The notes beneath the pieces were generated by a model. It searched no databases. It saw only the letters and a program-made list of their open reading frames with translations, and was not told where the DNA came from. The translations under genes were made by a program, and so were the position numbers. A stretch of DNA of 32,000 bases from Thermodesulfobacteriota bacterium. Lineage in GTDB: Bacteria > Desulfobacterota > WTBG01 > JAGOGO01. This document shows, one piece after another, positions 9,203 through 31,575 of the stretch (its first letter is position 1; the number at the start of each line of letters is the position of its first letter). The stretch lies in the NCBI GenBank assembly GCA_026625185.1, contig CP113000.1, positions 975,622 through 1,007,621 on the forward strand. The letters are read 5' to 3'.

Positions 9203-9204
9203 AT

Positions 9205-11866: not shown

Positions 11867-11868
11867 GT

Positions 11869-13570: not shown

Positions 13571-13588
13571 ACGATTAAGTCTAAAAAT

Positions 13589-14536: not shown

Positions 14537-14549
14537 TATTTCCCGTTAT

Positions 14550-17998: not shown

Positions 17999-18767
17999 AT
18001 GAAACATTGTGCATCTTGTTATGAAACTCAACAAAAATATCCCTTACCATTTTCCTGTTCTTATCAAGATCATCAAGAACCCATTTGCTGGTCTCTACTT
18101 CCGGCAGAATGTAAACATCCACATGGCCACCCAAAGTCCTATAACCCCTACCCGGATCTATTTCCGATGGTATGTAAATATAAATCGGAACAATTGGTAC
18201 CTTCATATTGGTCGCTAGGTGAAACGCACCTTTATTGAATTTTGATATTCTTCCCGTTGTGGTAACTGCGCCTTCAGGAGAAAGGATCACAGACTCTCCG
18301 GTCTTACGCAATTTGACTTCTGCACGTTTAAAACATTCAGTCCTCTTTCTTGGTTTGTGTTGCTGGTCAATCAGAAATGTCCCGATAAAAAAGTTTATTA
18401 TGGTGACGGGAATATATTTATAGGTCGCTTTTGACATAAAGTACCGCGTATTATTGAAGCCGATCGCCGGTAAGAGCACCACATCAATAGTGGAGGTGTG
18501 ATTAATCACATATATTTTCTGTGAATTTGACAAATCGTCCTGATGATGAACGGTATAGGTAATGCCAAACATCCGCAAAATCATCGCGCAACCGGGACGG
18601 ACAATATACCGGCAACATATATTTCTTAGCTTAAAAAAGGTGCTGATTTGAAAAATTGCAACGATAAAGGCAGTGATAAACAATACGGTTACTGCTGAGG
18701 GAATAAGGATCAGCAAACGCACAGGGAATTTTCTCTTTGCTTTTTTATCAGGCTTTGCAGCGATCAT
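17991..18767 (-). CDS. lysophospholipid/glycerol-3-phosphate acyltransferase family (PlsC-like) with N-terminal TM anchor
   Basis: NHTSTID (H-x4-D) and SPEGAVTTTG (PEG block). GGGAG lies 8 nt upstream of the ATG. First gene of the ten-gene unit. Confidence 0.8.
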   Translation of the reverse strand: MIAAKPDKKAKRKFPVRLLILIPSAVTVLFITAFIVAIFQISTFFKLRNICCRYIVRPGCAMILRMFGITYTVHHQDDLSNSQKIYVINHTSTIDVVLLPAIGFNNTRYFMSKATYKYIPVTIINFFIGTFLIDQQHKPRKRTECFKRAEVKLRKTGESVILSPEGAVTTTGRISKFNKGAFHLATNMKVPIVPIYIYIPSEIDPGRGYRTLGGHVDVYILPEVETSKWVLDDLDKNRKMVRDIFVEFHNKMHNVSYE

Positions 18768-19040
18768 AAATCGCTCCCGTGAAACAGGTGTGTCTCATAC
18801 CCATTTTGCATCAAGGTCGTCAGTTAACTATTTGACAGAGTCCCCCTCGCTGGATATTGGCGGCAAAGTTCTCGGTTACCCTAATAATATATCTTCCCCA
18901 AAAATTACCACTGCCACCTCTGTATTTCAACGAAAATATTGTGCTCATCATTTACATCAAAAAATTTGCCGGTATGGTTACAGGGGCATTATTGAAAAGA
19001 TGGAGGCATTCTGTCTGTCGCTTTAATGCAAATTAATTAC

Positions 19041-19118
19041 TTAGTCATTTTCAGCAAATTTCTAGGTATTTTATATCATAAATACCACCTTTATTCTGCT
19101 TGCGCACAAAATCGCACC
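19041..19118. repeat. repeat A, copy 1 (~80 bp, near identical to 25389-25468)
   Basis: TTAGTCATTTTCAGCAAATTTCTAGGTATTTTATATCATAAATACCACCTTTATTCTGCTTGCGCACAAAATCGCACC. It differs from copy 2 by two substitutions and a 2-nt A-run length change, by eye. Confidence 0.9.
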
Positions 19119-19245
19119 ACCGTTAAAAAGAACTAGAAACCATGTTAATATGGCAACCCTTTTTTAACCGAAACATTCTTATATCCTTTCCTCCGCAAGA
19201 TTCCGGATAATTCTTCTTAACCTGAACTATCCAACGGTTAAACAG

Positions 19246-19261
19246 TGCAATGGCCGTGCCA
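19246..19261 (-). promoter_or_regulatory. sigma-54 (-24/-12) promoter, copy 1
   Basis: The minus strand reads TGGCACGGCCATTGCA, a perfect TGGCAC-N5-TTGC(A) element. Confidence 0.7.
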
Positions 19262-19278
19262 GGGCGCGGAGATATTTA

Positions 19279-19291
19279 TAACTAATTGATT
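19279..19291 (-). promoter_or_regulatory. IHF-like site, copy 1
   Basis: The minus strand reads AATCAATTAGTTA, which fits WATCAANNNNTTR. It lies 17 nt upstream of the -24 element. Confidence 0.35.
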
Positions 19292-19369
19292 ATTAATTAT
19301 TTTATGCAAAAACTCGAATTAGGCTTTGAAAAGGAGGGGAATTTTAATGTTCACAAAAAGCACTATGCT

Positions 19370-19386
19370 TATACAAAAAATGTATA
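19370..19386. promoter_or_regulatory. palindromic upstream activator site candidate, copy 1
   Basis: TATACA-AAAAA-TGTATA. Its centre lies about 119 bp upstream of the -24 GG. Confidence 0.55.
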
Positions 19387-19508
19387 GCTATGAGGTGTTT
19401 TCTGAAGGGAGTCGCCCGGTATTTTTAAGCAGGGTTCACGGGGCAGGGAAGACTGAGGAGGGCATACCAAAAGCAAAATGAGGATTTTTAGCTTTACCGC
19501 TTGCTCCC

Positions 19509-19646
19509 TCACAGCTTCTTGAGCTTTGCCGGTACTATCGTCTCCCTAAGCAGCTTTTCCACCCCTTCTGCACCTACCCGATTACGCCATCTCGCCAGTG
19601 AGCTCGGGTCTAAGGGAAACTCATGTTGAAAATACACAACGGGTGC
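19509..19646 (-). pseudogene. IS5-like (DUF772-type N-terminal domain) transposase remnant
   Basis: The minus-strand frame, bounded by stops, reads APVVYFQHEFPLDPSSLARWRNRVGAEGVEKLLRETIVPAKLKKL. The YFQ.EFP.DPSSL.RWR.R.G..G.E.LL..TI pattern is typical of the N-terminal region of IS5/IS1182-type transposases. There is no start codon and no DDE domain. Confidence 0.5.
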
Positions 19647-19847
19647 TTACGGTTTATCATCTGTTCTAAGCGGGATCTAAACAAATCCTTTTGTCCGCTT
19701 GATTTCATCCTTTTCGGCATCAAAAATCACCAGCTTTTGAAGGGTTAATTACCCTTTTCTGGTGAATATATTATGTTTTTTCCCTAATTAAAACGAATTA
19801 TATCAATCTGTTAAACGTTTTTTCAGGAGCGACTATTTATAAAAAAT

Positions 19848-19874
19848 TTGACAAGAAAAATATTTATATATAAT
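19848..19874 (+). promoter_or_regulatory. candidate sigma-70-type promoter for the BCR/HGD-family operon
   Basis: TTGACA (19848-19853) and TATAAT (19869-19874) with a short 15-nt spacer. Alternatively TAATTT at 17 nt. About 90 nt upstream of the GTG at 19961. Confidence 0.4.
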
Positions 19875-19960
19875 TTATATGTGTTGAACAAAATCGTATT
19901 AACTTTACAGTTAACTAACTTTTCTATAGTCATATCAACTTAATAAAAGGAGGTCTAATT

Positions 19961-21082
19961 GTGGCAATCGAGGAATTAATACGGATTGGTGAAACTATAT
20001 ATAACAAATATATTGATGATTGGAAAAAAGAGGGGAAGAGAGTTATTGGGTACACTTGCAGTTATGCGCCTGAAGAGATCCTGCAAGCCGCCGGTCTTCT
20101 GCCTATTAGGCTCAAGGCCATTGGTTCCAGCGAAACCAGTAAGGCAGACGTGTATATGCCGAAATTCCACTGCACTTTTTCAAGGCATCTGTTGGATCAG
20201 GGCATGTCTAATGCCTTTGATTTTGTTGATGGGATTGTCTTTGTTAACTCATGCGACCAGCTAAGACGAATGTATGATGTGTGGAATAAGCTTGTAAAAT
20301 TTCCATATCAAACCATTATGGTCATGCCCTATTCCTACGATAAAGAGGATTTTGAATGGTACCTGGAGCACGAGGTTAAGAAGCTTAAGAGCGACCTGGA
20401 GACAGCTTATGGGGCAAAAATTACCGACAGCTCGTTAAGCGAGTCAATAAACATTTTCAACGAAACCAGAAACCTTCAGGCCAGATTGTATGAAATGAGA
20501 GGCGCAAAAGAACCCAGAATCAACGGGGTGGACACCCATAAGATCATCACGGCTGCAACCTCTATGCCCAAGAAAAAATACAACGAATTGCTGAAAGCGT
20601 CCCTCGAGGAGCTGAAAAAGAGGCCGGGTATTACAGATTACCGGGCCCGCATTCTCATCGGAGGAAGCATGATAGATGAGCCGGAATTACTGCAGGTTAT
20701 CGAGGATGCCGGGGGTCTTGTGGTTGCAGACGTGTTGTGCACCGGCACCAGATGGACCACGGATAAAGTGGAAACGGACGGTGACCCCCTTTACGCCATT
20801 GCCAAACGATATTACGATCATCAACCATGTCCAAGAATGACCATGGTTTACGAGCGAAAACGTGATTTTGTACTGGATCAGGCAAAGAAAAATCAGGTGG
20901 ATGGGGCTATCTTTTCCAAAATCGCCTTTTGTGATCATCATTCTGGAGACAATGTTCTTTACCAGGAGGATCTTGAGAAGGAGGGTATTCCATCTTTGCT
21001 GCTGGATAGAGATTACAGGATAACCGACGTGGGCCGATTCAGGACAAGAATCGAGGCCTTTTTTGAAAAACTTGGTAAATAA
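19961..21082 (+). CDS. BCR/HGD-family subunit, small HGD-D-type (BcrC/BzdN/HgdB-like)
   Basis: 373 aa. GYTCSYAPEEIL..AG..P, VNSCDQ, and the C-terminal DGAIFSKIAFCDHH block are typical of 2-hydroxyacyl-CoA dehydratase / benzoyl-CoA reductase core subunits. GTG start 7 nt after AAGGAGG. Confidence 0.75.
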   Translation: MAIEELIRIGETIYNKYIDDWKKEGKRVIGYTCSYAPEEILQAAGLLPIRLKAIGSSETSKADVYMPKFHCTFSRHLLDQGMSNAFDFVDGIVFVNSCDQLRRMYDVWNKLVKFPYQTIMVMPYSYDKEDFEWYLEHEVKKLKSDLETAYGAKITDSSLSESINIFNETRNLQARLYEMRGAKEPRINGVDTHKIITAATSMPKKKYNELLKASLEELKKRPGITDYRARILIGGSMIDEPELLQVIEDAGGLVVADVLCTGTRWTTDKVETDGDPLYAIAKRYYDHQPCPRMTMVYERKRDFVLDQAKKNQVDGAIFSKIAFCDHHSGDNVLYQEDLEKEGIPSLLLDRDYRITDVGRFRTRIEAFFEKLGK

Positions 21083-21096
21083 AAGGAGGGTCGGCT

Positions 21097-22518
21097 ATGA
21101 AACCGGTTCCTAAAGAGTTAGAAGGTATAGAGCTGTTTCAAAGGTATTTAACCACCTTTAACCTAATTAATATTGCTTTGACTAATTTCAAAACAGTCGA
21201 AGATCTTATGGCCGCGGCGCCGGAGATCTTAAAGACCCTGCCGGAATATGATGTCGGGGTTTTTCAGTCCCTTAGGCCGGATATTGTTATCGCGGCCTTC
21301 CATCCAAAAAACAGGAATGTGGTACTGAAATGTGCGCAGGCCCAAATAAAATTTTGGCAGGGCATAATAGATGACATCAAGGCAGACAAGCCGCAGTTGG
21401 ATTTTTGGTTTGCGCAAGGTCCGGAACTATTCCGCGCGCTGGGATTTTCCCCGCTATGCACTGAAACCACGTTGGTTGCCTCTGCAATTTATCAGGATGG
21501 ATGTGAAGATGCCACTGACTTATTCAGGTCTAAAGGATTTGCCGATCATATCTGCACCGCCAATGTGGCCTACCCCGGATATGTGATGAATGGCAACTGG
21601 AAGGTTCCCCATGTTATGGTAAAGCCCGGGACTCCCTGTCCTTCAAGCAACCTGGCCTACCAGGCCATAAAGAAATGGTATGGCAATGATTACATCATGT
21701 ATGACTCCACATACTATCTTGACGAAAAAGGCTTGGCCCATCAGACGGATGCCATTCGAAGGGCCATAGCCAAATTGGAGAAGATCTCGGGACAAAAGCT
21801 TGATGAAGCTGTCCTCAGGCAGCAGATGAAGGAAAGCAACCAAACCTACGCCCTTTGCGGTGAGCTTCTTGAGCTCAGGAAAAACAAGCCCAATCCTGAT
21901 CCGGGCATGCACCGTATCCTTGACCTGCTCATGATGGTCACACTTCTCGGAGAGCCTTCATGTACCGAATACTTTCAGCTTCTTGTGGACGAAGCGAAGG
22001 AAAGGGTGGCCAAAGGAGTGGGGGCAATCCCGGAGGGCAAAAAGGAGATCAGGGCGCTTCACACTTGGGCCCTTAACGCATATATGCCGGACCTTTATCA
22101 CTGGCTGGAGGAGACCTATGGGATGACTTACCTTACCTGTGGACTCTCCTATTTCGTTAACCATCAGGTGGATACCTCTTCGGCGGATTCCATGGTCGAG
22201 GGATGGGCCCAGAGGATTATGAACTTTACTATGGAAAGGCAGAGCATGAGCTTTGGTGATGTCTGGGTTGATGATATGTTTTATCTGGCAAAGAACTGGG
22301 ATGCTGACTGCGGCATATTCGCGGGAAACCTGTCATGCAAGCAGGGTTGGGCCATGAGTAAACTGCTGGGCGACCGACTGGAGGATGAACTTGGTATACC
22401 GTCGGTAAGATTTGAAATCGAATTGTGCGATAAACGCACCTGCCCCCCTGATGAGTTCAAGCACCGTATCGGGAGTTTTGTGGAAACCATTTTAACAAAC
22501 TCAAAAAAGAGAGTTTGA
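21097..22518 (+). CDS. BCR/HGD-family subunit, large HGD-D-type (BcrB/BzdO/HgdA-like)
   Basis: 473 aa. The C-terminal DADCGIFAGNLSCKQGW block and overall size fit the larger core subunit. AAGGAGG lies upstream of the ATG. Confidence 0.7.
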   Translation: MKPVPKELEGIELFQRYLTTFNLINIALTNFKTVEDLMAAAPEILKTLPEYDVGVFQSLRPDIVIAAFHPKNRNVVLKCAQAQIKFWQGIIDDIKADKPQLDFWFAQGPELFRALGFSPLCTETTLVASAIYQDGCEDATDLFRSKGFADHICTANVAYPGYVMNGNWKVPHVMVKPGTPCPSSNLAYQAIKKWYGNDYIMYDSTYYLDEKGLAHQTDAIRRAIAKLEKISGQKLDEAVLRQQMKESNQTYALCGELLELRKNKPNPDPGMHRILDLLMMVTLLGEPSCTEYFQLLVDEAKERVAKGVGAIPEGKKEIRALHTWALNAYMPDLYHWLEETYGMTYLTCGLSYFVNHQVDTSSADSMVEGWAQRIMNFTMERQSMSFGDVWVDDMFYLAKNWDADCGIFAGNLSCKQGWAMSKLLGDRLEDELGIPSVRFEIELCDKRTCPPDEFKHRIGSFVETILTNSKKRV

Positions 22519-22520
22519 CA

Positions 22521-23324
22521 ATGATAGTTGCAGGTATTGATGTCGGCTCCCTCACCGCTAAAGCGCTTATTATGAAGGACGGTGAGATTATTGATTTTGA
22601 TATTATCACTGTCAGACCAACACCCGTACAATCAGCAGGGGACGTGATGGAAAAGGCCCTGAACAAGACCGGGCTTAAGATGGATGACCTAGATTATTGC
22701 GTGAGCACCGGTTATGGACGGGAGCAGATATCATTTTCACGGAAAAGCATATCTGAAATCTCCTGTCATGGAATGGGGGCGCATTGGTGCAGACCCTCCA
22801 TAAGGGGCGTTATCGACATCGGGGGGCAAGACTGCAAGGCCATTATAGTGGATAAGGACGGGAATTTAGATAATTTCGCCATGAACGACAAATGCGCCGC
22901 CGGCACCGGAAGATTTCTGGAGATCATCTCCAAGGCCCTTGGCATTGACCTCGCCGAGCTGGGACCGTTGACCTTCAAATCAAATAATCCACTGAAAATT
23001 GTGAGGAGGTGCAGCGTTTTTGCCGAGTATGAGGTCATATTTTTACTCGCAGAAGGTAAGGATGTCACCGATATAGGCGCGGGGGTTAATGAAGCCATGG
23101 CCCAAAGAGCCTTTTCGCTGGCTAGCAGTATAAATCTTAATAACAAACTTACTGGTGAATTGACCGTGACGGGCGGTGTTGCAAAAAATGTCGGGGTCAT
23201 CAAAAACCTGGAAAAACTTTTTGATGCCGAAATTGTTAGTTTGCCACTGGACCCACAGATAATGGGCGCTTTGGGGGCTGCGCTGTTTGCTCGACGATAT
23301 TATGAGAAAGAGGTAAGAGTTTAA
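22521..23324 (+). CDS. BcrAD/BadFG-type ASKHA ATPase (electron-activating subunit 1)
   Basis: MIVAGIDVGSLTAK phosphate-1 motif. DKCAAGTGRFLE and RCSVFAEYEV carry the two Cys that bridge the inter-subunit [4Fe-4S] cluster in HgdC/BcrAD. I prefer the ATG at 22521 to the TTG at 22515 used in the ORF track. Confidence 0.85.
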   Translation: MIVAGIDVGSLTAKALIMKDGEIIDFDIITVRPTPVQSAGDVMEKALNKTGLKMDDLDYCVSTGYGREQISFSRKSISEISCHGMGAHWCRPSIRGVIDIGGQDCKAIIVDKDGNLDNFAMNDKCAAGTGRFLEIISKALGIDLAELGPLTFKSNNPLKIVRRCSVFAEYEVIFLLAEGKDVTDIGAGVNEAMAQRAFSLASSINLNNKLTGELTVTGGVAKNVGVIKNLEKLFDAEIVSLPLDPQIMGALGAALFARRYYEKEVRV

Positions 23325-24104
23325 ATGCATTTTTCCATTGGGATGGACATCGGACTGGTCGGTATCAAAGGGGTAGTCATGAAAGGCGAAAATATTGTTG
23401 CTCAGGTGGTAAAAGATACTGGGGTGAGACCTGCTTTGGCGGCCAAGGAATGTTATGAGCAATTACTCTCAGATGCGGATATAAGTTCAGACAAGATTCA
23501 AGCCCATGGGGTTAGCGGCTGGGGCTCAAAAACATTATCATTCGATTTCGATATAGAATACCTCCCTGATGTGGTCTGCCTTGCTAAAGGGGCAAAATGG
23601 GCCTGCCCGACTTCAAGAATGGTTGTTGACGTGGGGGCGCAGACAGCAAAAGTTGCTCGTTTTGATGGGAATGGGAGTGTAAAAAAATACGAGCTAAGTG
23701 ATAAATGCGCCTCAGGAACAGGAAGATTTCTGGAAATCATGTCGGCGGCTTTAGGATTGAAAGTAAACAATTTGGGGCAAATAGGACAAGCGGCGTCGAA
23801 ACTGGTGGAAATTTCATCCCAATGCAGCGTCTTTGCCGAAAGTGAAATCATAAGCTATGTAAATACCGGCGAGAAGACAGAAGATATTGTAAATGGCATT
23901 AACTATTCGATAGCGAAGAGGGTTTCAACCATCATTATGAGAGTGGGTATTCAAGAAGATATTATTATAACAGGTGGGGTGGCAAAAAATGATGCCGTTG
24001 TCAGATATATAGAGGAGATGGTCAAGGTTAGATTTAAAGATTACGGGGTAGACCCCCAAATGATTGGCGCCATAGGTGCGAGCTTAACTGCTCAGCAGAC
24101 ATGA
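23325..24104 (+). CDS. BcrAD/BadFG-type ASKHA ATPase (electron-activating subunit 2, distinct paralogue)
   Basis: IGMDIGLVGIKG, DKCASGTGRFLE and QCSVFAESEI. The ATG directly abuts the upstream TAA. Confidence 0.85.
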   Translation: MHFSIGMDIGLVGIKGVVMKGENIVAQVVKDTGVRPALAAKECYEQLLSDADISSDKIQAHGVSGWGSKTLSFDFDIEYLPDVVCLAKGAKWACPTSRMVVDVGAQTAKVARFDGNGSVKKYELSDKCASGTGRFLEIMSAALGLKVNNLGQIGQAASKLVEISSQCSVFAESEIISYVNTGEKTEDIVNGINYSIAKRVSTIIMRVGIQEDIIITGGVAKNDAVVRYIEEMVKVRFKDYGVDPQMIGAIGASLTAQQT

Positions 24105-24122
24105 AAAGGTTAGGAACCAGCT

Positions 24123-24935
24123 ATGCCAAAAATAATTGCCGTTAGCGGCAAAGGGGGTATAGGAAAATCCACCCTGGCTGCATTGATAACCAAGTTTTTT
24201 TCTGAAAACACGGATAAAAAGATTCTCCTGGTTGATGCTGACCCGTCTATTAGCCTGACCCTTATGCTCGGGATGGACCCGCTCAAAACACTGAGCAACT
24301 TGAGGGAAAAATTTGTCACCAGTGCGGAGGCTGCCCAGGAGGCCATGTTTGGAGATAAACACATCCGTGATACTATTTATGATGAGTGTTTGCAGAACGG
24401 TGGAAGGTTTAACTTGCTTGCCATGGGCAGGCCTGAAGGACCGGGATGTTTCTGTTCAGTCAATGAGTTATTAAGATATGGGATCGAAAGTGTTTCAAAG
24501 AATTTTGACATAACCATCATCGATTGTGAAGCAGGCCCTGAACAGGTTAACCGGAGAGTGACCAAGAGTATTGACGATTTAATACTCGTAATCGAACCAA
24601 CCGTCAGAAGCGTTCAAACAGCATTATATATCAAGAAGGTGGCTGAAACTTATGGTGTTCAAAAGTCGTTTAGTTTGCACATTATTTTAAATAAAATAGG
24701 GAAACATGACAGAACAAAAAACATAAAGTCAATTTTAAGTAGCGAAGGGATAAAAATTTCAGGAATAGTACCTTTGGATGAAAATATAGCTGAATATGAC
24801 TCCATTGGAAAATCTATACTTGATCTTTCTCATGAATCACCCAGCGTGAAAGCTGTTGGAGAAATCTTCACATTCCTGTATCTCCAGAAAGAGGTCAATT
24901 TTGTCCGTGAGAGAGAGTTAGACCAGCAGATATAA
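24123..24935 (+). CDS. CooC-like MinD/ParA-type P-loop ATPase (metallocentre maturation factor family)
   Basis: AVSGKGGIGKST deviant Walker A, LLVDADPSISL, and a C-x-C motif (GPGCFCSVN) as in CooC-type nickel/cluster insertion ATPases. Confidence 0.6.
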   Translation: MPKIIAVSGKGGIGKSTLAALITKFFSENTDKKILLVDADPSISLTLMLGMDPLKTLSNLREKFVTSAEAAQEAMFGDKHIRDTIYDECLQNGGRFNLLAMGRPEGPGCFCSVNELLRYGIESVSKNFDITIIDCEAGPEQVNRRVTKSIDDLILVIEPTVRSVQTALYIKKVAETYGVQKSFSLHIILNKIGKHDRTKNIKSILSSEGIKISGIVPLDENIAEYDSIGKSILDLSHESPSVKAVGEIFTFLYLQKEVNFVRERELDQQI

Positions 24936-25096: not shown

Positions 25097-25388
25097 ATAA
25101 TACCAAATCAATCCGATTTTCAAAAGAGTTGTCTTTGAAATCCTTACTTACTTTGTCAAAATAAACCCAGCGACCGCGATAATTCCGTTCGTTATTGGGC
25201 GTGGCTACGGGACTGGGCTACGGGACGTACATGAAAATATGAATTGATATTGTGATAAGACCGGGGGAAGAAGGGGCGTCCATTAAATTATAAAATTTCT
25301 AACAACGGCGACTTATGCGTACCAACATAAACACTGTTTTTGCATGAAATAATAATATAATGGAAAAAAAATGAATTAGAAAAATTTG

Positions 25389-25468
25389 TTAGTCATTCTC
25401 AGCAAATTTCTAAGTATTTTATATCATAAATACCACCTTTATTCTGCTTGCGCACAAAAAATCGCACC
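25389..25468. repeat. repeat A, copy 2
   Basis: TTAGTCATTCTCAGCAAATTTCTAAGTATTTTATATCATAAATACCACCTTTATTCTGCTTGCGCACAAAAAATCGCACC, 52 nt beyond the stop of the last lipoprotein gene. Confidence 0.9.
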
Positions 25469-25520: not shown

Positions 25521-26855
25521 CTAATAAACTAAACTTATCCACCTCGCAACAATCCCTTGCTTGGTTGGCCAAACCGCAAGGACATCACACCTCCCGCTAC
25601 TACCGATCTGTATCAAATTCCATGGCCCACCCAACCAATGATCAGCAACATTAGTTTCTCCCAAATCTACCGGAGCAGACCAAACCCGACTAAAAAATTC
25701 CAAAAAAAGAACATGGTTTTTGTTACTAAAATTACCCCCCTCTGGGTTTCCGATTACCAAAGCATGAAAGTTATCGTCGCCAGCCGGAGATAGCTTGGGT
25801 TCCCAATAGGTTCGAAGTGGGAATTTGATAGTTCCATTCTGCACGTTATCTTTTAATAAGTAACTCTCGCGATCATGACCACGCAGGATAAGCGCATTGC
25901 CTGTTTCTGGATCTACCGCAAGAGTGCTTTGCGACATATCCTTGGGGTAATCTTGCGAGAATTGAAATTTTTTTCCGGTTACCTTACGGAGCGATCTTGA
26001 TCCCTTAAAAGCACTTAATTTTGCCGGATCCGCCAAGGTATCAGGTGGACCGACAGTTGTTTTGAAACTTACATATCTAGATTGAGAATCCTTTGCTATT
26101 ATTGTGCAAATTGAGTCGTAAATGAGGGTGACAGTGCCTTTTGCATCAGCAGCAAGGTGTATATTATCTATCGATTTCTTATCATTTGGATCAACGACAG
26201 TCCAGGTTGTGTAGATAGGATGGTTTTCAGAAACTACCATTAGTTTGTGCGCTCGTGTTGGCCACGGCCAAATGATGCCACCCCCGTAACCACCAAGTCC
26301 ATACAAATCCAGACGCCAAGGAGCTCCAACTTCATTTCCTTTAACCTCAAAGGCCCATATCAACCCTTTAGCGCCTTTCACGAAAGACGGATTAAACGCC
26401 TCAACCCCTATCTCTTTCCAAGGGGTGCGCTCAACTTTTCGCCAGATACCGTCCTTATAAATCAGATGCTCATTATCTATTAGCACATGAAGATGCCCTT
26501 CGCAATCAAACGTTACATCAAAAGCCGAGGGCAAAGCGGAAGTCCTTATGATCTCGCTCTTCGTGACGCTGTCAGGGCCAACAACGAAGTGGTGAATTTC
26601 CTTTAATTCAGTTGAAACGATAACAACGTGGGCTTGGCCGCTGCTATCAAAAATTACCCGGGCGCTATCGCCATGCGCTGTTTTTGTCCTCAGGAGTTCG
26701 ATAACTGGACCTGAACGAATGTTCGGCAGCACATATTTCGCAGGTAATTTTTTTTCAGATGTGATCGCGCATCCGTTGATTAAAAGGCTTGCGACAAATA
26801 GGACAAGTAGAATATCCGTTTGAAGGCATTTAAAACGCTTGCAATTAAAAACCAT
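25521..26855 (-). CDS. predicted lipoprotein, probably beta-propeller-like, unknown function
   Basis: Signal peptide ending LLINGC|A. Recurring strand-like blocks (AHVVIVS, HLHVLID, VTLIYD, FHALVIG, CDVLAVW) suggest repeated blades. Strong SD (AAGAGGAGGAAG) upstream. Confidence 0.6.
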   Translation of the reverse strand: MVFNCKRFKCLQTDILLVLFVASLLINGCAITSEKKLPAKYVLPNIRSGPVIELLRTKTAHGDSARVIFDSSGQAHVVIVSTELKEIHHFVVGPDSVTKSEIIRTSALPSAFDVTFDCEGHLHVLIDNEHLIYKDGIWRKVERTPWKEIGVEAFNPSFVKGAKGLIWAFEVKGNEVGAPWRLDLYGLGGYGGGIIWPWPTRAHKLMVVSENHPIYTTWTVVDPNDKKSIDNIHLAADAKGTVTLIYDSICTIIAKDSQSRYVSFKTTVGPPDTLADPAKLSAFKGSRSLRKVTGKKFQFSQDYPKDMSQSTLAVDPETGNALILRGHDRESYLLKDNVQNGTIKFPLRTYWEPKLSPAGDDNFHALVIGNPEGGNFSNKNHVLFLEFFSRVWSAPVDLGETNVADHWLGGPWNLIQIGSSGRCDVLAVWPTKQGIVARWISLVY

Positions 26856-27043
26856 CGCTGCAATCTTCCTCCTCTTAAATGATCTTTTGATCTTTTCACA
26901 TTAAACTGCCACGCCGATTTACTTCACTGAAACCCGACCTCGATTCAGGTTTCTTTTATTCGATAAACCCTGCACCAGCCCTCATTTATAGCCCCACAGC
27001 AATCATTGTCACCCTCGACTTTCAAGTCTTTATTATAGGCCTT

Positions 27044-27439
27044 TCATTGATTGGTTTCCTGACATTCACAAACCGCTTTATCAATGCGGCTATGGAAGAT
27101 TTGATAAGCCCTATGATATTCGGTTACTGAACCTGAATCTGTGTCAGCAACTTCGGCCCATACCGGATACCTCGAATGTTTCGCGCCAGAAGGGATTCCA
27201 TACCAACCCGTGGGGATTGCAACTCCTACAAAATAACCATTGTTCTGCTTTTCCAGAATTACTGGAACTTTGCCTGACATTCCGCTCTGTTCCCATTCTT
27301 TCGCAATGCATGAAGCGACAGCATGAGATGAATGCACACTTTTGAAATTCTGTGTGGCACAACCGCATATCAAAATAAATACAAGCATCAAAGTCAATCC
27401 ACAAATTATTTTTATTTTCCTTTTTATTAAGTTTGACAT
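27044..27439 (-). CDS. small predicted lipoprotein, unknown function
   Basis: 131 aa. MSNLIKRKIK..LMLVFILICGC|ATQNF is a signal peptide plus lipobox-like Cys. Confidence 0.6.
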   Translation of the reverse strand: MSNLIKRKIKIICGLTLMLVFILICGCATQNFKSVHSSHAVASCIAKEWEQSGMSGKVPVILEKQNNGYFVGVAIPTGWYGIPSGAKHSRYPVWAEVADTDSGSVTEYHRAYQIFHSRIDKAVCECQETNQ

Positions 27440-27480
27440 TTTATTTTTCTGCCTTCATACGGAGAGGAGTTCCAATGCGC

Positions 27481-28881
27481 TCACTTGGTTTCTAAAAGCA
27501 CCTTTCTATTCTCCGACCATGGGGCTTTCTCCTTCACCACTTCATTAAAAAATCTTTGCATTGAAGCTTGAATTGCTTTCGATATTTCCGCTTTAAATAA
27601 TTTCCTTCCGTTAACGCCTTGATATTCTTCCATCGTTCGACTCGTGGAACCTTCTCCGACCTTCGCCTCATAAAATAAGGGCTCTTTTCTATTCTTGGGA
27701 TTGGCATAATATGAAACCACATCATACACTAAGGCTTTGGGCGCGGTTTCCCAAAGGCGTATGCGCAAAGTTACTGCCACGCAAAAAGAACCGCGCTCTT
27801 TACATTCACTCAGTTCTATATTCAGGATTTCTGTTTGAACAATACTTTTTAGGCCCTGTTGGTTCGCCTGCGCAAAGGGATCATTTTCAGTGTTTAAGTC
27901 AATCGGCTTTGATATGCAATATTTGGAAAGCATGCTTTCAAAACCAGATCCGAGCATTGCGGCAGGGTCATTTTCCTTGAGCTCCTGCTGAAGTCCCTGG
28001 ATGGTTGGCTGCCATTTATGCTCAGCGATTTCGCCGGCAATTGTCCCCCCGGTAATTCCCACAGGAAGATACGTTAAGTATAAAAGAAGAATACCTGCTC
28101 CGGCTTCACGTCCCGCACTTAAGGTTGAAAGACCATTGGCTACATCTTCTCCACTTTCAATCCCAGTAGCACGCGAGATGGCTCTTTTTTTCCAATGCGG
28201 GGACATCAGGTTTTTGGTGCTGGTGGTCATGAAGCCCATGGGAACAAGTTCTTTTATGCACCGGGTATTAATTGGCTTCCCCATTGGTTTCATATGCGCT
28301 AATGATGGAGAACCGTATTGACTGAACGAATCTTGGGCAATAGCCTGTGCTGATTCACTCTCATCAATTACCCTAATTCCGGAGCACTCATTTACCAGTC
28401 GCCCAAAAATCCCCCAGGTGGTTCGGCAGGAAGCAGCAAGGGTACCGATATAGAGCACGTGGTTACCACGTGGAACATGAAACCAAAATACTTCAGGAGC
28501 TGACAGATACCGATCATCCTTCGATGAAATTGCTTCCCGTTTTGGGGAAACGCCAAGATAATAGGTGCCCGGCTGAAGAATAAAATATACCCAGCCGTTT
28601 TTTTGAGCTTGGTGGGATGGAGAATGATAAGGGAAAATACCTGTTGGAGATTGGTCAGCATCAATACTTGCCATTAGTGAGTAAAATCTTTCCGGCCCTT
28701 GCAATTTTTTAGAATCAATTTCCGCAGAAAGCCGGAGCAAAACTACTGATTTTCCTCCTCCGGCAACCGCCTTCTCATCACCTGCATTCGGATTACGCAC
28801 AACAGTCGCGCAGCCGTTAAGAAGCATGGCAAGAAAAACTAATAATACGATCATCAAGGAGAATACATTTAATTTTGACAT
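27481..28881 (-). CDS. predicted lipoprotein, family X paralogue 2 (466 aa), unknown function
   Basis: Signal peptide ..FLAMLLNGC|ATVV. Full-length paralogue of 29913-31316. Conserved Cys pairs and a Gly-rich hydrophobic segment (YLPVGITGGTIAGEIAEHKWQP). Confidence 0.65.
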   Translation of the reverse strand: MSKLNVFSLMIVLLVFLAMLLNGCATVVRNPNAGDEKAVAGGGKSVVLLRLSAEIDSKKLQGPERFYSLMASIDADQSPTGIFPYHSPSHQAQKNGWVYFILQPGTYYLGVSPKREAISSKDDRYLSAPEVFWFHVPRGNHVLYIGTLAASCRTTWGIFGRLVNECSGIRVIDESESAQAIAQDSFSQYGSPSLAHMKPMGKPINTRCIKELVPMGFMTTSTKNLMSPHWKKRAISRATGIESGEDVANGLSTLSAGREAGAGILLLYLTYLPVGITGGTIAGEIAEHKWQPTIQGLQQELKENDPAAMLGSGFESMLSKYCISKPIDLNTENDPFAQANQQGLKSIVQTEILNIELSECKERGSFCVAVTLRIRLWETAPKALVYDVVSYYANPKNRKEPLFYEAKVGEGSTSRTMEEYQGVNGRKLFKAEISKAIQASMQRFFNEVVKEKAPWSENRKVLLETK

Positions 28882-28961
28882 TTTTTTTACCTCCTTTCAT
28901 TTGATTTCAGAAACCAGTGGTAAAAAAAGCAATGGCCGTCCTCCGTTTACTCTCCAGGCTT

Positions 28962-29678
28962 TTACCGGTACTGCCACGAAGGTACTTTTTTCTCGTCCGG
29001 GGTCAAACCGGTCAATTTTTTAAGGATCTCCTTGGTGAGTTTCAGACCCGCCTCTGATTGTGTCTGAGGGATAAACAATAGATGTGCCATGTACGCCAGA
29101 CCCACAAACTCCCCCTTTGACGAAGTTGTTATTGTTCCAATGCTTTTTCCTGACGGTGCTTCCCATATGGTTGCTTCCAGGGTTGTTTGGTTGCCGCACG
29201 CAGCCGCACCAAAGGGAACAAGATATAACGGTACGTGTATTGTGGTTTCAACTTTTTCATTGATGAAAATAATGTATCGCAGATGCTCCTGTTTTGCCTT
29301 TGCTTCTGATATGCTCAATTCCGCCAAAACCGGTTCGCTGAATTTTATGGTCGGCCCTGGTTCCTGTAATTCGCCCAATGTCTTTATGTCGAACTGATCG
29401 GGCGCTGGATTTAGCACCACCATATACTTGATTACTTGCCCGACGGTATCATCCTGAAAATCAGGCATGCCTCCCATGGTAAAATAGGGCTCGCCGAAAC
29501 GTGCGGGACAGGGTGCGTTGTTTCCGCAGATAAGGATCGTCTCGCCTTTTTCTATCAGCGCAACCCGAGAAAGTTTGTCATTAATGGTTTCGATGGAGGG
29601 AGATGGTAAAGGCAGACACCCGCAGATAAGATTCAGGTACAGAATCAAAAAAATATACCCACAGTAATATGATCTCAT
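28962..29678 (-). CDS. predicted lipoprotein, unknown function
   Basis: Start moved to MRSYYCGYIFLILYLNLICGC (ATG at 29678), which has TAAGGAG 7 nt upstream. The track start at 29708 would overlap the truncated paralogue ORF. Confidence 0.55.
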   Translation of the reverse strand: MRSYYCGYIFLILYLNLICGCLPLPSPSIETINDKLSRVALIEKGETILICGNNAPCPARFGEPYFTMGGMPDFQDDTVGQVIKYMVVLNPAPDQFDIKTLGELQEPGPTIKFSEPVLAELSISEAKAKQEHLRYIIFINEKVETTIHVPLYLVPFGAAACGNQTTLEATIWEAPSGKSIGTITTSSKGEFVGLAYMAHLLFIPQTQSEAGLKLTKEILKKLTGLTPDEKKVPSWQYR

Positions 29679-29692
29679 ATGATTACTCCTTA

Positions 29693-29836
29693 TTAATTCT
29701 TGATGCACGAAGCGACAACATCAGATGAACGCGAACTTTTGAAATTCTGGGTGGCACAACCGGATATCAATAGAAAGACAATAGTCAAAACTATTTCAAG
29801 TGCCCCTTTGATCTGTCTTTTTATAAACCGTGACAT
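29693..29836 (-). pseudogene. truncated copy (47 codons) of the small lipoprotein gene at 27044-27439
   Basis: MSRFIKRQIKGALEIVLTIVFLLISGCATQNFKSSRSSDVVASCIKN* aligns with the first ~47 residues of MSNLIKRKIKIICGLTLMLVFILICGCATQNFKSVHSSHAVASCIAKEW... The flanking DNA (29837-29912 versus 27440-27520) is also homologous. Confidence 0.55.
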
Positions 29837-29912
29837 TTTATTTTTCCTTTTTTCATACGCCGAGGAGTTTTAATGAGCTCACTTGTTTCTAAAGCCTTTT
29901 TTTATTCTTAGC

Positions 29913-31316
29913 TCACCGAGAGTTCTCCTTCAGTACATCATTAAAAATTTTTTGAACTGAAAGTTGAATTGCTTTTGACAGTTCATCTTTTAAAAATTTT
30001 CTTCCTTCGGGGCCGCAATAGTCCTCCATTTTCCGGCATTCGGAACATCCTCCCCCCACCTCAGTTACAAAAAATACTGGTTTTTCTCTAATGGCTTTGT
30101 TGGAATATTGTGATACCGAATCATAGAGCAAGTTTTTTGACGCTGTCTCCCAAACTCGAGAACGCATGTTTACCACAATACAAAAACAACCCCGTTCTTT
30201 ACATTCACTCAGTTCTATATTCAGGAAATTCGCCTCGAAGATGCTTTTAAGCCCCAGTTGCTTTGCCCGGACAAAAGGGTCATCCGCCTCCTTCAGGTTA
30301 ATTGGCGCAGTTGCGTCATATTGGGAAAGCGAAGTTTTAAAAGCAGAACTGAGCATCGCGGCGGGGTCGTTTTCCTGCAGTTCCTGCTGAAGGCCTTGGA
30401 TGGCGGGTTGCCATTTGTGCTCAGAGACTTCTCCGGCAATTACACCGCCGGTGAATGCTACAGGCAAATAATATACTGAATATAAAATTGCAACCGGCGG
30501 GGCTGACAGATTAAGAAATGCACTGAGGTATGGATGGTCATTCACGAATTGAGAAGAACCATCGCGCTTAAAACTCAACTTCTCTAATCCTATTCCCATC
30601 CCCATTGCGCTGATAATGTTCCTCCTTTTCCAATTTGGTGAATTCAACTCTTGAGTGCTGGTGGTCGTGTATCCCATGGGGACAAGTTCACCCATCGTCC
30701 GGGTGGTTCTTGGTCTGCTAAGTGGTTTCATGATGACCGATGACAGTGAACCGTATTGCCTGAAAGAAGCCCGGGCAATAACTTTGGCTGATTCAGTCTG
30801 GTCAATGACCTTTATCTCAGAACACTGATCTACCTGCCGGCTAATCAATCCTCTTGTGGTTTCGCATGCAGTACTTAGGGTTCCGATATAAATAACCTTA
30901 TTACCCTGGGGAACTGAAAACCAAAAACTGTCGGGGGTAAAATAATGAGAGTTCTTCAAGGTATCAACTTTCGGGCTGACCTCAAGATAATAGGTGCCCG
31001 GCTCAAGCATAAAATACACCCACCCATCTTTTCGGGCTTCTGCTGAGGGAAAATCGTAAAAATTAAGATTATTCGTTGAAGAATAAAGGTTGTCACAGGT
31101 TGCTATTACCCAGTAAAATCTTCCCGACCCCTCATTTTTTTGAGAATCAATCTTCGCGGAACACCTAAACAAAACCACGGATTTTCTCTTTTCTTGAGTG
31201 ACCTCCTTAACGTTTATACCCAGGTTTGATCCAGGAGTTGCGCAGCCAAAAAGAAACATTAAAAAAGCATTCAAAGTGATAAAAGCAATTGGTCTTAACC
31301 CTGACATTTTTTTCAT
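29913..31316 (-). CDS. predicted lipoprotein, family X paralogue 1 (467 aa), unknown function
   Basis: Signal peptide ..FLMFLFGC|ATPG. Shares long identical peptide blocks with 27481-28881 (EHKWQP.IQGLQQEL.ENDPAAML, LNIELSECKERG.FC). AAAGGAG upstream. First gene after the sigma-54 promoter. Confidence 0.65.
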   Translation of the reverse strand: MKKMSGLRPIAFITLNAFLMFLFGCATPGSNLGINVKEVTQEKRKSVVLFRCSAKIDSQKNEGSGRFYWVIATCDNLYSSTNNLNFYDFPSAEARKDGWVYFMLEPGTYYLEVSPKVDTLKNSHYFTPDSFWFSVPQGNKVIYIGTLSTACETTRGLISRQVDQCSEIKVIDQTESAKVIARASFRQYGSLSSVIMKPLSRPRTTRTMGELVPMGYTTTSTQELNSPNWKRRNIISAMGMGIGLEKLSFKRDGSSQFVNDHPYLSAFLNLSAPPVAILYSVYYLPVAFTGGVIAGEVSEHKWQPAIQGLQQELQENDPAAMLSSAFKTSLSQYDATAPINLKEADDPFVRAKQLGLKSIFEANFLNIELSECKERGCFCIVVNMRSRVWETASKNLLYDSVSQYSNKAIREKPVFFVTEVGGGCSECRKMEDYCGPEGRKFLKDELSKAIQLSVQKIFNDVLKENSR

Positions 31317-31380
31317 CTCCTTTCACTCTCAAAGTTTCGGATAGTTATTTTTAACTTGAGCTACCCAATGATCGAATAAA

Positions 31381-31395
31381 GCAATTGATGTGCCA
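31381..31395 (-). promoter_or_regulatory. sigma-54 (-24/-12) promoter, copy 2
   Basis: The minus strand reads TGGCACATCAATTGC(T), a perfect TGGCAC-N5-TTGC. The predicted transcription start is near 31370, giving a ~54-nt leader to the ATG at 31316. Confidence 0.75.
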
Positions 31396-31412
31396 GGGCA
31401 CGAAGATGTTGC

Positions 31413-31425
31413 TAACTTAATGATT
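31413..31425 (-). promoter_or_regulatory. IHF-like site, copy 2
   Basis: The minus strand reads AATCATTAAGTTA, one mismatch to WATCAANNNNTTR. It has the same 17-nt offset from the -24 element as copy 1. Confidence 0.3.
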
Positions 31426-31503
31426 TTGAATAAGATTATGACAAAACCCGGATCAGACTTTGAAAAGGAAGGGGGGTTTAAGGTTCATGCAATGCACTAC
31501 ATC

Positions 31504-31520
31504 TATACAAATTTTGTATA
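31504..31520. promoter_or_regulatory. palindromic upstream activator site candidate, copy 2
   Basis: TATACA-AATTT-TGTATA, a perfect 17-bp palindrome. Its centre lies about 119 bp upstream of the -24 GG, the same spacing as copy 1. Confidence 0.55.
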
Positions 31521-31575
31521 GCACTGAGGTGTCTTCTGGAGGGAGTCGTTCGGAATGTTCCGCATGTTCACGGAA

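What the first reader, a model, noticed from the sequence alone, without database searches (positions are those of the whole stretch)
31317..31573. Complete sigma-54 promoter architecture (-24/-12, IHF-like site, perfect palindrome) driving the five-lipoprotein operon
Seen on the minus strand:
- TGGCACATCAATTGC (31395-31381), an exact TGGCAC-N5-TTGC.
- AATCATTAAGTTA, 17 nt further upstream, with one mismatch to the IHF core.
- The perfect palindrome TATACAAATTTTGTATA (31504-31520), centred about 119 bp upstream of -24.
- The predicted ~54-nt leader starts with an 8-bp hairpin (GGGTAGCT...AACTATCC, 31366-31339).

Established: sigma-54 promoters require a bacterial enhancer-binding protein bound 80-150 bp upstream, often with IHF-mediated looping.

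Inference: the lipoprotein operon is silent unless a specific enhancer-binding protein, not encoded in this window, is activated. The palindrome is its likely binding site.
Basis: partly seen in the sequence, partly recalled or inferred. Interest (0 to 1): 0.65.

Follow-up and report, generated by a model that had tools for sequence, protein, structure and literature searches.

The report
Conserved sigma-54 promoter for lipoprotein operon
The stretch is very probably a real sigma-54 promoter with an activator-binding palindrome and an IHF-type bending site; it is an ordinary kind of switch, but it is one of at least three copies that appear to put orphan lipoprotein genes and membrane-lipid genes of a benzene-fermenting bacterium under one unidentified regulator.

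Summary

The support comes from comparison, not from the motifs alone.
- A second copy of the whole 250-nt module lies at 19176-19425. It is 73% identical, yet all 22 specified palindrome and -24/-12 bases are intact and the 108-nt gap is the same.
- A third module lies just outside the window, before a B12-radical-SAM/hydrolase/ceramidase operon.
- A lipoprotein homologue only 55% identical, found by protein search, has the same palindrome, the same 108-nt gap and TGGCAC-N5-TTGC.
- The IHF core sits in the same alignment column in nine modules.
- In Planctomycetota, Desulfobacterales, Methylomirabilales and a high-GC contig, (T/G)TACA-N5-TGTA palindromes followed by a sigma-54 promoter lie next to a divergently transcribed activator gene of one unnamed family. 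The targets are often B12-radical-SAM or lipid genes.

The window matches Desulfobacterota ORM2a, a benzene fermenter. No activator gene lies in the window or in the parts of its contig that I could read. Presence of rpoN could not be tested.

Verdict: a new member of a known kind, of modest interest. The shared regulon is the more interesting lead.

The parts
31504..31520 (-). Upstream activator site 1: perfect palindrome TATACAAAATTTGTATA, centred about -143 from the predicted start of transcription.
   Evidence: The arms are identical in copy B (19370-19386) although the modules are only 73% identical overall. It is also present in L020, which was found by protein homology. The related TACA-N5-TGTA lies next to activator genes in L041 and L043.
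31482..31498 (-). Probable degenerate second activator site, AGTGCA-TTGCA-TGAACC, 22 bp centre to centre downstream of site 1.
   Evidence: The same register holds related half-sites in B (AGTGCT-N5-TGAACA), C (CCTGCA-N5-TGATCA), L020 (CATACA-N5-TGAATA) and the Planctomycetota loci (TATACA-N5-TGTCAA). That it is a binding site is inference.
31462..31476 (-). Conserved CT-rich block CCCCCCTTCCTTTTC; role unknown, possibly an anti-Shine-Dalgarno insulator.
   Evidence: Conserved in the window-like modules. It is predicted to pair with the ribosome-binding site in read-through RNA, but for this module that pairing does not exceed shuffled controls.
31413..31425 (-). IHF-like core AATCATTAAGTTA (one mismatch to WATCAANNNNTTR), preceded by an A/T-rich arm and centred about -50.
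   Evidence: The core sits in the same alignment column in nine modules and is a perfect match in B, L024, L028, L032 and L033. A single site is not above chance.
31381..31395 (-). Sigma-54 -24/-12 element TGGCACATCAATTGC (GG at 31394-31393, GC at 31382-31381). The predicted transcription start is near 31369.
   Evidence: It is an exact match in modules B and C and in L020, L041 and L043, none of which was found by searching for this element together with the palindrome. The start position is inferred from the usual sigma-54 spacing.
31337..31368 (-). Stem-loop at the 5' end of the predicted transcript (TTGGGTAGCTC ... ACTATCCGA).
   Evidence: The RNAalifold consensus has 11 pairs, two of them with compensatory changes. 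This leader is about 85-90% conserved before a lipoprotein homologue that is only 54% identical as protein. The stabilising role is inferred.
31305..31324 (-). Ribosome-binding site GAAAGGAG (31324-31317) and the likely true start codon ATG at 31307-31305.
   Evidence: 464-aa form P0001; ATGTCAGGGTTAA is conserved at the homologues' starts.
25521..31316 (-). Downstream operon of lipobox ORFs: 29913-31316, 28962-29708, 27481-28881, 27044-27439 and 25521-26855, plus a truncated paralogue at 29693-29836.
   Evidence: signal peptides ending in L/I-x-G-C. No Pfam or NCBIfam hit. Only 12 homologues exist among 5.8 billion proteins. One domain resembles PelC/GNA1162-type outer-membrane lipoproteins, weakly.
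31521..31559 (-). Conserved block upstream of the palindrome (CGACTCCCTCCAGAAGACACCTCA...), lying within the 250-nt repeat; function unknown.
   Evidence: Conserved in A, B, L032 and L033.
19176..19425 (-). Paralogous module B. Palindrome TATACATTTTTTGTATA at 19386-19370, perfect IHF core AATCAATTAGTTA at 19291-19279, and TGGCACGGCCATTGC at 19261-19247. It is followed by a decayed remnant of a lipoprotein signal peptide, then by a lipid-metabolism operon starting at 18767.
   Evidence: (repeat D2). No minus-strand terminator is predicted before 18767.

Best explanation
The intergenic stretch 31317-31575 (minus strand) is a functional sigma-54-dependent promoter.

**Proposed mechanism**
1. RNA polymerase carrying sigma-54 sits as a closed complex on TGGCAC-N5-TTGC (31395-31381).
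2. Dimers of an enhancer-binding protein bind the perfect palindrome TATACA-N5-TGTATA (centre about -143). They probably also bind a weaker site 22 bp downstream (centre about -121).
3. An IHF-type protein bound at AATCATTAAGTTA (about -50) bends the DNA so that the activator ring touches the polymerase.
4. ATP hydrolysis then opens the promoter.
5. Transcription starts near 31369, right at a conserved 5' stem-loop that probably stabilises the mRNA. It runs through five lipoprotein genes.

**Wider picture**
- The module is one of at least three on this contig that share the same upstream site. The other two precede a B12-radical-SAM/hydrolase/ceramidase operon and a phospholipid-type biosynthesis operon.
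- The lipoproteins therefore probably belong to a membrane or lipid-remodelling regulon.
- The likely activator belongs to an unnamed family: an N-terminal domain of about 200 aa with no Pfam or NCBIfam model, then the AAA+ domain, then a C-terminal helix-turn-helix.

**Shown versus inferred**
- Shown: the presence, conservation and fixed geometry of the sites, and the co-occurrence of the palindrome with that activator family in other lineages.
- Inferred: binding, looping, the transcription start, the activator's identity in this organism, and the physiological signal.
For: **Within the contig**
- Both the -24/-12 element and the palindrome are exact matches and are rarer than chance allows.
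- Module B, found by self-similarity, is 73% identical over 250 ungapped nt. It keeps all 22 specified bases of the palindrome and the -24/-12 element, 8 of the 9 specified IHF-core bases, and the same 108-nt gap. By my own estimate, 0.73^22 is about 0.001.
- Module C, upstream of the B12-radical-SAM gene, has an exact CTGGCACGGTCATTGC and a half-conserved palindrome at a gap of 107 nt.

**Relatives found by protein, not by DNA pattern**
- L020 carries a lipoprotein homologue that is 55% identical. It has TATACATTTAATGTATA, a gap of exactly 108 nt, and CTGGCACGCCAATTGC.

**Collection scans**
- Nine window-like modules from the window's contig, the metagenome scan and L020 share the IHF core in one alignment column.
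- In the genome scan, 5 of 9 hits have the 108-nt gap out of 21 allowed lengths.

**Link to an activator family**
- Planctomycetota loci have tandem palindromes between a divergent activator gene and an orthologue of the contig's radical-SAM gene, 50% identical.
- L035 and L031 show the same layout. The L035 activator is homologous over its full length to the L009 activator; L031 holds only an N-terminal fragment with matching motifs.
- Two further family members picked by protein alone (L041, L043) each have an exact TGGCAC-N5-TTGC. Each also has a TACA-N5-TGTA-type palindrome 96 or 112 nt upstream, next to the activator gene.

**Rivals excluded**
- No coding signal is conserved across the module.
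- No Rfam family matches.

**Organism**
- The ORM2a annotation lists sigma-54-dependent regulators.
Against: - Nothing here shows transcription, sigma-54 binding or activator binding.
- Neither rpoN, IHF genes nor an activator of the proposed family could be looked for in the source genome.
- No activator gene lies in the window or in the parts of the 55.7-kb contig and its homologous contigs that I could read.
- No hit carrying ORM2a's contig length appeared among the N-domain hits or the top 120 activator homologues.
- The two collection scans required the palindrome and the -24/-12 element. Conservation of those two elements among scan hits is therefore by construction.
- The IHF core alone is at chance level.
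- A weak sigma-70-like match (TTCAAA-18-CATAAT, 31464-31435) lies inside the module.
- Read-through from the upstream operon cannot be excluded.
Confidence: 0.85

Rival explanations
1. The module is mainly a relic of a segmental duplication or repeat element. The motifs survive only because the copies are recent, and the real expression signal is elsewhere.
For: - A and B form a 250-nt ungapped repeat.
- B is flanked by a decayed transposase-like fragment and a gene remnant.
- An 85-nt repeat at 95% identity lies nearby.
Against: - The copies are 27% diverged, yet all 22 specified motif bases are intact.
- The same motifs at the same spacing occur before a homologue with only 55% protein identity, where the sequence between the motifs has diverged.
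- They also occur in other lineages next to activator genes.
Confidence: 0.04
2. A sigma-70 promoter inside the same intergenic region (TTCAAA-18-CATAAT, 31464-31435) drives the operon, and the palindrome is an operator for a conventional repressor or activator.
For: - The consensus scan finds a 9-of-12 match with a TG extension.
- The CATAA(A/T) stretch is partly conserved.
Against: - Sigma-70-like matches are at chance level in this region: 17 found against 12.9 expected.
- The conserved A/T-rich stretch is where the A/T arm of an IHF site is expected.
- This reading does not explain the invariant TGGCAC-N5-TTGC or its fixed distance from the palindrome.
Confidence: 0.06
3. The promoter is real but secondary. 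The lipoprotein genes are transcribed mostly as the tail of a longer unit that starts at module C, before the radical-SAM gene. Module A only boosts or re-initiates transcription.
For: - No terminator is predicted between the ceramidase stop at 31576 and the lipoprotein start.
- The order ceramidase, module, lipoprotein is conserved in relatives.
- Module C carries a related upstream site.
Against: - A complete, strongly conserved promoter with its own upstream site is retained at this position in several relatives.
- The CT-rich block could even damp translation of read-through RNA, but that test was inconclusive.
Confidence: 0.3
4. The activator is a PspF-type protein rather than the unnamed family, making this a phage-shock-like envelope-stress regulon.
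For: - Three Hyphomonadaceae genomes have the same palindrome at the same 108-nt gap before pspA.
- Each has a divergent, bona fide PspF; the Hirschia protein scores above the TIGR02974 cut-off.
Against: - No pspA gene is in the regulon seen here.
- The E. coli pspF-pspA region has no such palindrome.
- The orthologous radical-SAM target is paired with the other activator family in the Planctomycetota loci, and a B12-radical-SAM gene is likewise paired with it in Methylomirabilales.
Confidence: 0.12

Closest known systems
Classic IHF-assisted sigma-54 promoters: Pseudomonas putida Pu with XylR, Klebsiella nifH with NifA, E. coli pspA with PspF, and the Desulfovibrio vulgaris orp operons with OrpR (PMC8359166)
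   Same: - A GG/GC -24/-12 element.
- Tandem activator sites more than 100 bp upstream.
- An IHF site in between.
- An activator that may be encoded elsewhere.
   Different: - The upstream site, TATACA-N5-TGTATA (core TACA-N5-TGTA), is not the NifA (TGT-N10-ACA) or NtrC motif, as I recall those motifs.
- It is not the E. coli PspF site.
- It was not found in the text of the Desulfovibrio vulgaris regulome paper.
- The targets are orphan lipoproteins and lipid genes.
Hyphomonadaceae pspF-pspA divergent promoters (L003, L005, L011)
   Same: - An identical palindrome type with the same 108-nt gap to TGGCAC-N5-TTGC.
- A second related site just downstream.

   Different: - The activator is a true PspF with a Fis-type helix-turn-helix and no N-terminal domain.
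- The target is pspA.

Unnamed activator family with divergent sigma-54 promoters in Planctomycetota, Desulfobacterales, Methylomirabilales and a high-GC contig (L009, L035/L043, L041, L031)
   Same: - The same palindrome core at 96-112 nt from the -24 element.
- An orthologous B12-radical-SAM plus hydrolase target in the Planctomycetota loci.
- Lipid-related neighbours: MlaC, MMPL, and acyltransferases.

   Different: - In the window's contig the activator gene is not adjacent; a RhuM gene and a DpnII-type restriction gene occupy that place.
- The regulon has spread to lipoprotein and lipid-synthesis operons.

CT-rich anti-Shine-Dalgarno insulators in sigma-54 promoters (Levy et al., bioRxiv 10.1101/086108)
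   Same: A conserved CT-rich block inside the promoter region is complementary to the downstream ribosome-binding site.
   Different: - The block lies about 150 nt upstream of the ribosome-binding site, not within 25 bp.
- For this module, predicted pairing does not exceed shuffled controls.

Membership tests
Sigma-54-dependent promoter | GG and GC doublets with the canonical TGGCAC-N5-TTGC spacing | tested here: met
   Exact match at 31395-31381.
Sigma-54-dependent promoter | Conservation of the -24/-12 element in paralogous and orthologous promoters found by other means | tested here: met
   Exact in module B (self-similarity), module C, L020 (protein homology), and L041 and L043 (activator homology).
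Sigma-54-dependent promoter | The genome encodes sigma-54 (rpoN) | not testable with these tools
   The ORM2a genome could not be searched. The only indirect support is that its annotation lists two sigma-54-dependent regulators, OS130_01675 and OS130_02305.
Sigma-54-dependent promoter | Transcription start about 12 nt downstream of the GC, dependent on rpoN | not testable with these tools
   Needs 5'-end mapping and genetics.
Enhancer-dependent promoter (upstream activator site) | Inverted-repeat site or sites 80-150 bp upstream of the -24 element, conserved with fixed phasing | tested here: met
   The palindrome is centred 118 bp upstream of the GG. The gap is 107-112 nt in most modules and 96 nt in L041. 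A second site lies 22 bp away.
Enhancer-dependent promoter (upstream activator site) | A cognate activator binds the site | not testable with these tools
   Only co-occurrence with a divergent activator gene in other lineages supports this.
IHF-assisted sigma-54 promoter | WATCAANNNNTTR core with an A/T-rich arm between the upstream site and the -24 element | tested here: met
   There is one mismatch here. The core is perfect in five related modules at the same alignment column. A single site is at chance level.
IHF-assisted sigma-54 promoter | IHF genes are present and IHF binds the site | not testable with these tools
Regulon of the unnamed activator family (L009/L035 type) | An activator gene of this family adjacent and divergent | tested here: not met
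   No Sigma54_activat protein is encoded in the window or in the readable parts of its contig.
Regulon of the unnamed activator family (L009/L035 type) | TACA-N5-TGTA palindrome about 100-110 nt upstream of TGGCAC-N5-TTGC | tested here: met
Regulon of the unnamed activator family (L009/L035 type) | An orthologous target gene (B12-binding radical SAM plus hydrolase) | tested here: met
   The radical-SAM protein at L001 2715-4091 is 50% identical to the one in L009, and each follows such a module. This target lies just outside the window.
PspF / phage-shock regulon | pspA-family target and a PspF-type upstream site | tested here: not met
   No PspA_IM30 protein is encoded downstream. The E. coli psp control region lacks the palindrome. 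Hyphomonadaceae psp promoters do share it.
CT-rich anti-Shine-Dalgarno insulator | CT-rich motif within 25 bp upstream of the ribosome-binding site | tested here: not met
   The block at 31476-31462 lies about 140-150 nt upstream of the site at 31324-31317.
CT-rich anti-Shine-Dalgarno insulator | Sequestration of the ribosome-binding site in read-through RNA beyond what composition alone gives | tested here: inconclusive
   Pairing is predicted. However, 47 of 60 shuffles do as well for module A; only L024 and L028 stand out, at 1-2 of 60.

The most novel reading that the evidence does not exclude
The palindrome TACA-N5-TGTA and the unnamed activator family may define a widespread, uncharacterised sigma-54 regulon for membrane-lipid and envelope remodelling.
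- Its targets would include B12-radical-SAM enzymes, hydrolases, a ceramidase, MlaC/MMPL transporters and phospholipid-synthesis genes.
- It would span Desulfobacterota, Planctomycetota, Methylomirabilota and others.
- In the benzene fermenter ORM2a it would have spread by promoter duplication to at least three operons, including an orphan lipoprotein family. That could form a response to solvent stress on the membrane.
Probability: 0.35. Interest if true: 0.6.

Novelty: new member of a known kind. Interest (0 to 1): 0.4.

Why it matters
The promoter itself is a textbook design, so as an isolated feature it is ordinary.

**What the follow-up adds**
- A concrete, testable regulon in an uncultured bacterium studied for anaerobic benzene degradation.
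- Three operons within 37 kb share one activator site: radical-SAM/hydrolase/ceramidase, five orphan lipoproteins, and a phospholipid-type synthesis cluster.
- A DNA motif is tentatively assigned to a large activator family that databases name only generically.

**If confirmed**
- It would give a handle on how such organisms adjust their envelope; membrane stress from benzene is discussed for ORM2a in PMC13101534.
- It would supply a search rule (TACA-N5-TGTA about 100-110 nt upstream of TGGCAC-N5-TTGC) for annotating this regulon in metagenomes.

Tried and rejected
1. **Small gene on either strand.** Rejected. All six frames of copy B carry stops, substitutions show no three-base periodicity, and the plus-strand frame is stopped inside the palindrome in L020. 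The 43-aa ORF that JGI called at 31390-31521 is probably spurious.
2. **Known RNA family.** No Rfam hit anywhere in the window.
3. **Palindrome as a terminator of the ceramidase gene.** Rejected. It is AT-rich with a one-base loop, and the scan finds no terminator there.
4. **CT-rich block as an anti-Shine-Dalgarno insulator.** Pairing is predicted, but for module A it is not better than shuffled upstream sequence. Left as unexplained conservation.
5. **PspF as the activator.** The Hyphomonadaceae psp promoters share the motif, but E. coli's do not, and the orthologous target points to another family.
6. **Finding the activator in the source genome.**
   - Walking along the contig found none.
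   - No N-domain hit and none of the top 120 full-length hits carried ORM2a's contig length.
7. **More divergent lipoprotein homologues.** P0008 and P0012 lie inside operons, 51 and 76 nt after the preceding gene, so they say nothing about the promoter.
8. **Further degenerate modules in the fetched loci.** None found.
9. **Function of the lipoprotein.** Only a weak PelC/GNA1162-like domain match, from a model of moderate confidence.

Full report
**Observation**

Reading the minus strand confirms every element.
- TGGCACATCAATTGC lies at 31395-31381.
- AATCATTAAGTTA lies at 31425-31413, 17 nt upstream of TGGCAC.
- The 17-nt palindrome TATACAAAATTTGTATA lies at 31520-31504. Its centre is 118-119 bp upstream of the -24 GG.
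- A stem-loop lies in the leader.

The downstream gene at 29913-31316 opens a row of five ORFs with lipoprotein signal peptides, plus one truncated paralogue.

Chance levels differ between the elements.
- The exact -24/-12 pattern occurs twice in the window. With one mismatch allowed there are 6 matches against 1.5 expected.
- Palindrome-like matches number 5 against 0.28 expected.
- The IHF core alone is at chance: 63 matches against 59 expected.

**A second and a third copy**

The other exact -24/-12 match (19261-19247) and the other palindrome (19386-19370) belong together. The repeat finder reports a 250-nt ungapped repeat, 19176-19425 against 31310-31559, at 73% identity (alignment).

Despite 27% divergence, module B keeps:
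- both palindrome arms;
- the whole of CCCTGGCAC and ATTGC;
- a perfect IHF core, AATCAATTAGTTA;
- the identical 108-nt gap.

Module B is followed by a decayed remnant of a lipoprotein signal peptide. About 480 nt further on, with no predicted terminator in between, comes an operon encoding:
- an acyltransferase;
- a PEP-utilising enzyme;
- a methyltransferase;
- a lipid kinase;
- a CdsA-like cytidylyltransferase;
- an acyl reductase-like protein;
- a radical SAM/SPASM protein;
- a CDP-alcohol phosphatidyltransferase.

The window's own contig (L001) extends 5.3 kb beyond position 32000. There a third module precedes a B12-binding radical SAM gene, which is followed by an alpha/beta hydrolase and the ceramidase whose 3' end lies in the window. 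This module has CCTGCAAAATTTGTATA, a gap of 107 nt, and CTGGCACGGTCATTGC.

**Not a gene, not a known RNA**

No frame is open in both copies, and substitutions are not three-periodic. Rfam finds nothing.

**Relatives**

The lipoprotein family is tiny: 12 homologues among 5.8 billion proteins.
- **P0002 (55% identical, locus L020).** This locus was reached through the protein, not through DNA. Upstream it has TATACATTTAATGTATA, exactly 108 nt, then CTGGCACGCCAATTGC. The sequence between the motifs has largely diverged.
- **P0003 (54% identical).** Only 64 nt upstream are available. They reproduce the leader of modules A and B almost base for base. P0003's longer contig has the order ceramidase, 262 nt, lipoprotein.

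Scanning public genomes and metagenomes for the palindrome plus the -24/-12 element gave 9 and 17 loci.
- Five of 9 and nine of 17 have the 108-nt gap.
- Several lie before lipoprotein homologues and after a ceramidase gene.

In an alignment of nine window-like modules, five things are conserved:
- the palindrome;
- a half-conserved second site 22 bp downstream;
- a CT-rich block;
- an A/T-rich stretch followed by the IHF core in one column;
- the -24/-12 element.

The palindrome and the -24/-12 element were required by the scans. The IHF core, the second site and the CT block were not.

**The activator**

No Sigma54_activat protein is encoded in the window or in the readable parts of its contig. 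In other lineages, however, the module sits beside a divergent activator gene.
- **Planctomycetota/Phycisphaerae (L006, L009, L010 and others).** Two tandem palindromes lie between the activator gene and a radical-SAM orthologue that is 50% identical to the contig's. A hydrolase follows.
- **L027/L035.** The layout is the same, before a VIT-vWA protein and a rhomboid-like protein.
- **L031 (high GC).** The layout is the same, before a 467-aa ORF that I read as hydrolase-like. ORFs nearby, on the opposite strand, look like an acyltransferase, a CdsA-like protein and a CDP-alcohol transferase. These are readings of the translations, not tool assignments.

The L009 and L035 activators are homologous over their whole length (38% identity, E 5e-105). 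No Pfam or NCBIfam model covers their N-terminal 200 residues, and no curated family cut-off is reached. The family is large and only generically named.

As an independent test I picked two members by protein alone.
- **L041 (Methylomirabilales).** The activator is divergent from a 243-aa gene, a B12-radical-SAM gene, an FAD protein and an MFS/acyltransferase/AMP-binding fusion. The 174-nt spacer holds CGTACAACAAATGTACA, then 96 nt, then TGGCACATTGCTTGC.
- **L043 (Desulfobacterales).** The activator is divergent from VIT-vWA, rhomboid, MlaC and MMPL genes. The spacer holds TATACATATATTGATCA, then 112 nt, then TGGCACACCTGTTGC.

The core site is therefore TACA-N5-TGTA. Its link to this activator family holds in every case examined, although the window's own genome could not be checked.

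Three Hyphomonadaceae genomes use the same palindrome and the same 108-nt gap before pspA, with a genuine PspF. The E. coli psp region has no such site. I treat PspF as a less likely candidate.

**Leader**

The predicted start, about 31369 by the usual 12-nt rule, falls at the foot of a stem-loop. That stem-loop is conserved in seven leaders, with 11 consensus pairs, two of them with compensatory changes. A 4-bp CUUU/AAGG helix touches the ribosome-binding site. A stabilising 5' hairpin is the simplest reading, and it is inference.

**CT-rich block**

Levy et al. (bioRxiv 10.1101/086108) described CT-rich motifs in sigma-54 promoters that silence read-through transcripts by pairing with the ribosome-binding site. 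Folding predicts such pairing here. With the upstream sequence shuffled, the site is masked about as often for module A (47 of 60 shuffles), and clearly less often only for L024 and L028. The role of the block remains open.

**Organism**
- Homologous contigs come from the DGG-B benzene-degrading consortium: IMG 3300019861, and the JARDUJ assembly.
- The lipoprotein clusters list a longest contig of 3,300,546 bp. That matches the 3.30-Mb closed genome of Desulfobacterota ORM2a ('Candidatus Anaerobenzenivorax').
- The window's gene order fits locus tags OS130_04690, OS130_04730 and OS130_04740 in the supplement of PMC13101534.
- That supplement also lists two sigma-54-dependent regulators in ORM2a.
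- The window's genes are not part of the paper's 'Magic' or 'Nanopod' clusters.

**The lipoproteins**

They have no family assignment. A model of moderate confidence (pLDDT 66) has one domain weakly resembling PelC/GNA1162-type outer-membrane lipoproteins.

**Verdict**

This is a new member of a well-known promoter class. The added value is the evidence for a shared regulon and a candidate activator family.

Remaining gaps are the presence of rpoN, the identity of the activator in this genome, the transcription start, and how much read-through from the upstream operon contributes.

Noticed in passing
window 19035-19111 and 25383-25459: An 80-85-nt stretch is 95% identical at two places: after module B and after the last lipoprotein gene. 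It is far better conserved than the 73% promoter repeat. It starts inside what looks like a truncated lipobox and holds a GGTATTT...AAATACC hairpin. It may be a small repeat element, and it may explain why assemblies break here.
   Followed up: partly
window 19430-19760 (minus strand): A frameshifted ORF fragment upstream of module B reads MPKRMKSSGQKDLFRSRLEQMINRKHPL...LARWRNRVGAEGVEKLL. It gives only a weak, sub-threshold hit to the transposase domain DUF772 (E 0.022). It is probably a decayed IS remnant.
   Followed up: partly
window 29075-29089 (minus strand): A near-consensus sigma-54 element, TGGCACATCTATTGT, lies inside the 248-aa lipoprotein gene, 194 nt before the next gene. It resembles module A's element, and E. 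coli pspA also uses TTGT. No palindrome lies upstream of it.
   Followed up: partly
window 29693-29836 (minus strand): A 47-aa ORF is a truncated paralogue of the 131-aa lipoprotein at 27044-27439. The 29.7-31.3 kb and 27.0-28.9 kb segments form a diverged tandem duplication about 2.4 kb apart.
   Followed up: no
window 31305-31316: The first ATG (31316) directly abuts the GGAG. The second ATG (31307) has proper spacing and matches the homologues' conserved ATGTCAGGGTTAA start and the 464-aa database form.
   Followed up: yes
window 31390-31521 (plus strand): A 43-aa ORF called in the JGI annotation spans the promoter from the -24 element to the palindrome. It is not conserved in copy B or in L020 and is probably spurious.
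   Followed up: yes
window 8000-20000: The lipid-metabolism operon downstream of module B has a lower G+C content (0.36-0.40) than its flanks (0.42-0.48). This hints at acquisition by horizontal transfer.
   Followed up: no
L001 287-2303 (beyond window position 32000): A DpnII/MboI-type restriction gene and a RhuM-family gene sit where the divergent activator gene lies in Planctomycetota and Methylomirabilales. An insertion may have displaced the regulator.
   Followed up: no
L003, L005, L011 (Hyphomonadaceae): The pspF-pspA control regions carry TATACA-N5-TGTATA at exactly 108 nt from TGGCAC-N5-TTGC, the same geometry as in the window. Yet the activator belongs to a different family and E. 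coli lacks the motif.
   Followed up: partly
window 19961-24935 (plus strand): A cluster of two HGD-D (2-hydroxyacyl-CoA dehydratase-like) genes, two BcrAD/BadFG activase-like genes and a CooC/ParA-like ATPase lies between the two promoter modules. One subunit, OS130_04740, was detected in an ORM2a proteome.
   Followed up: no
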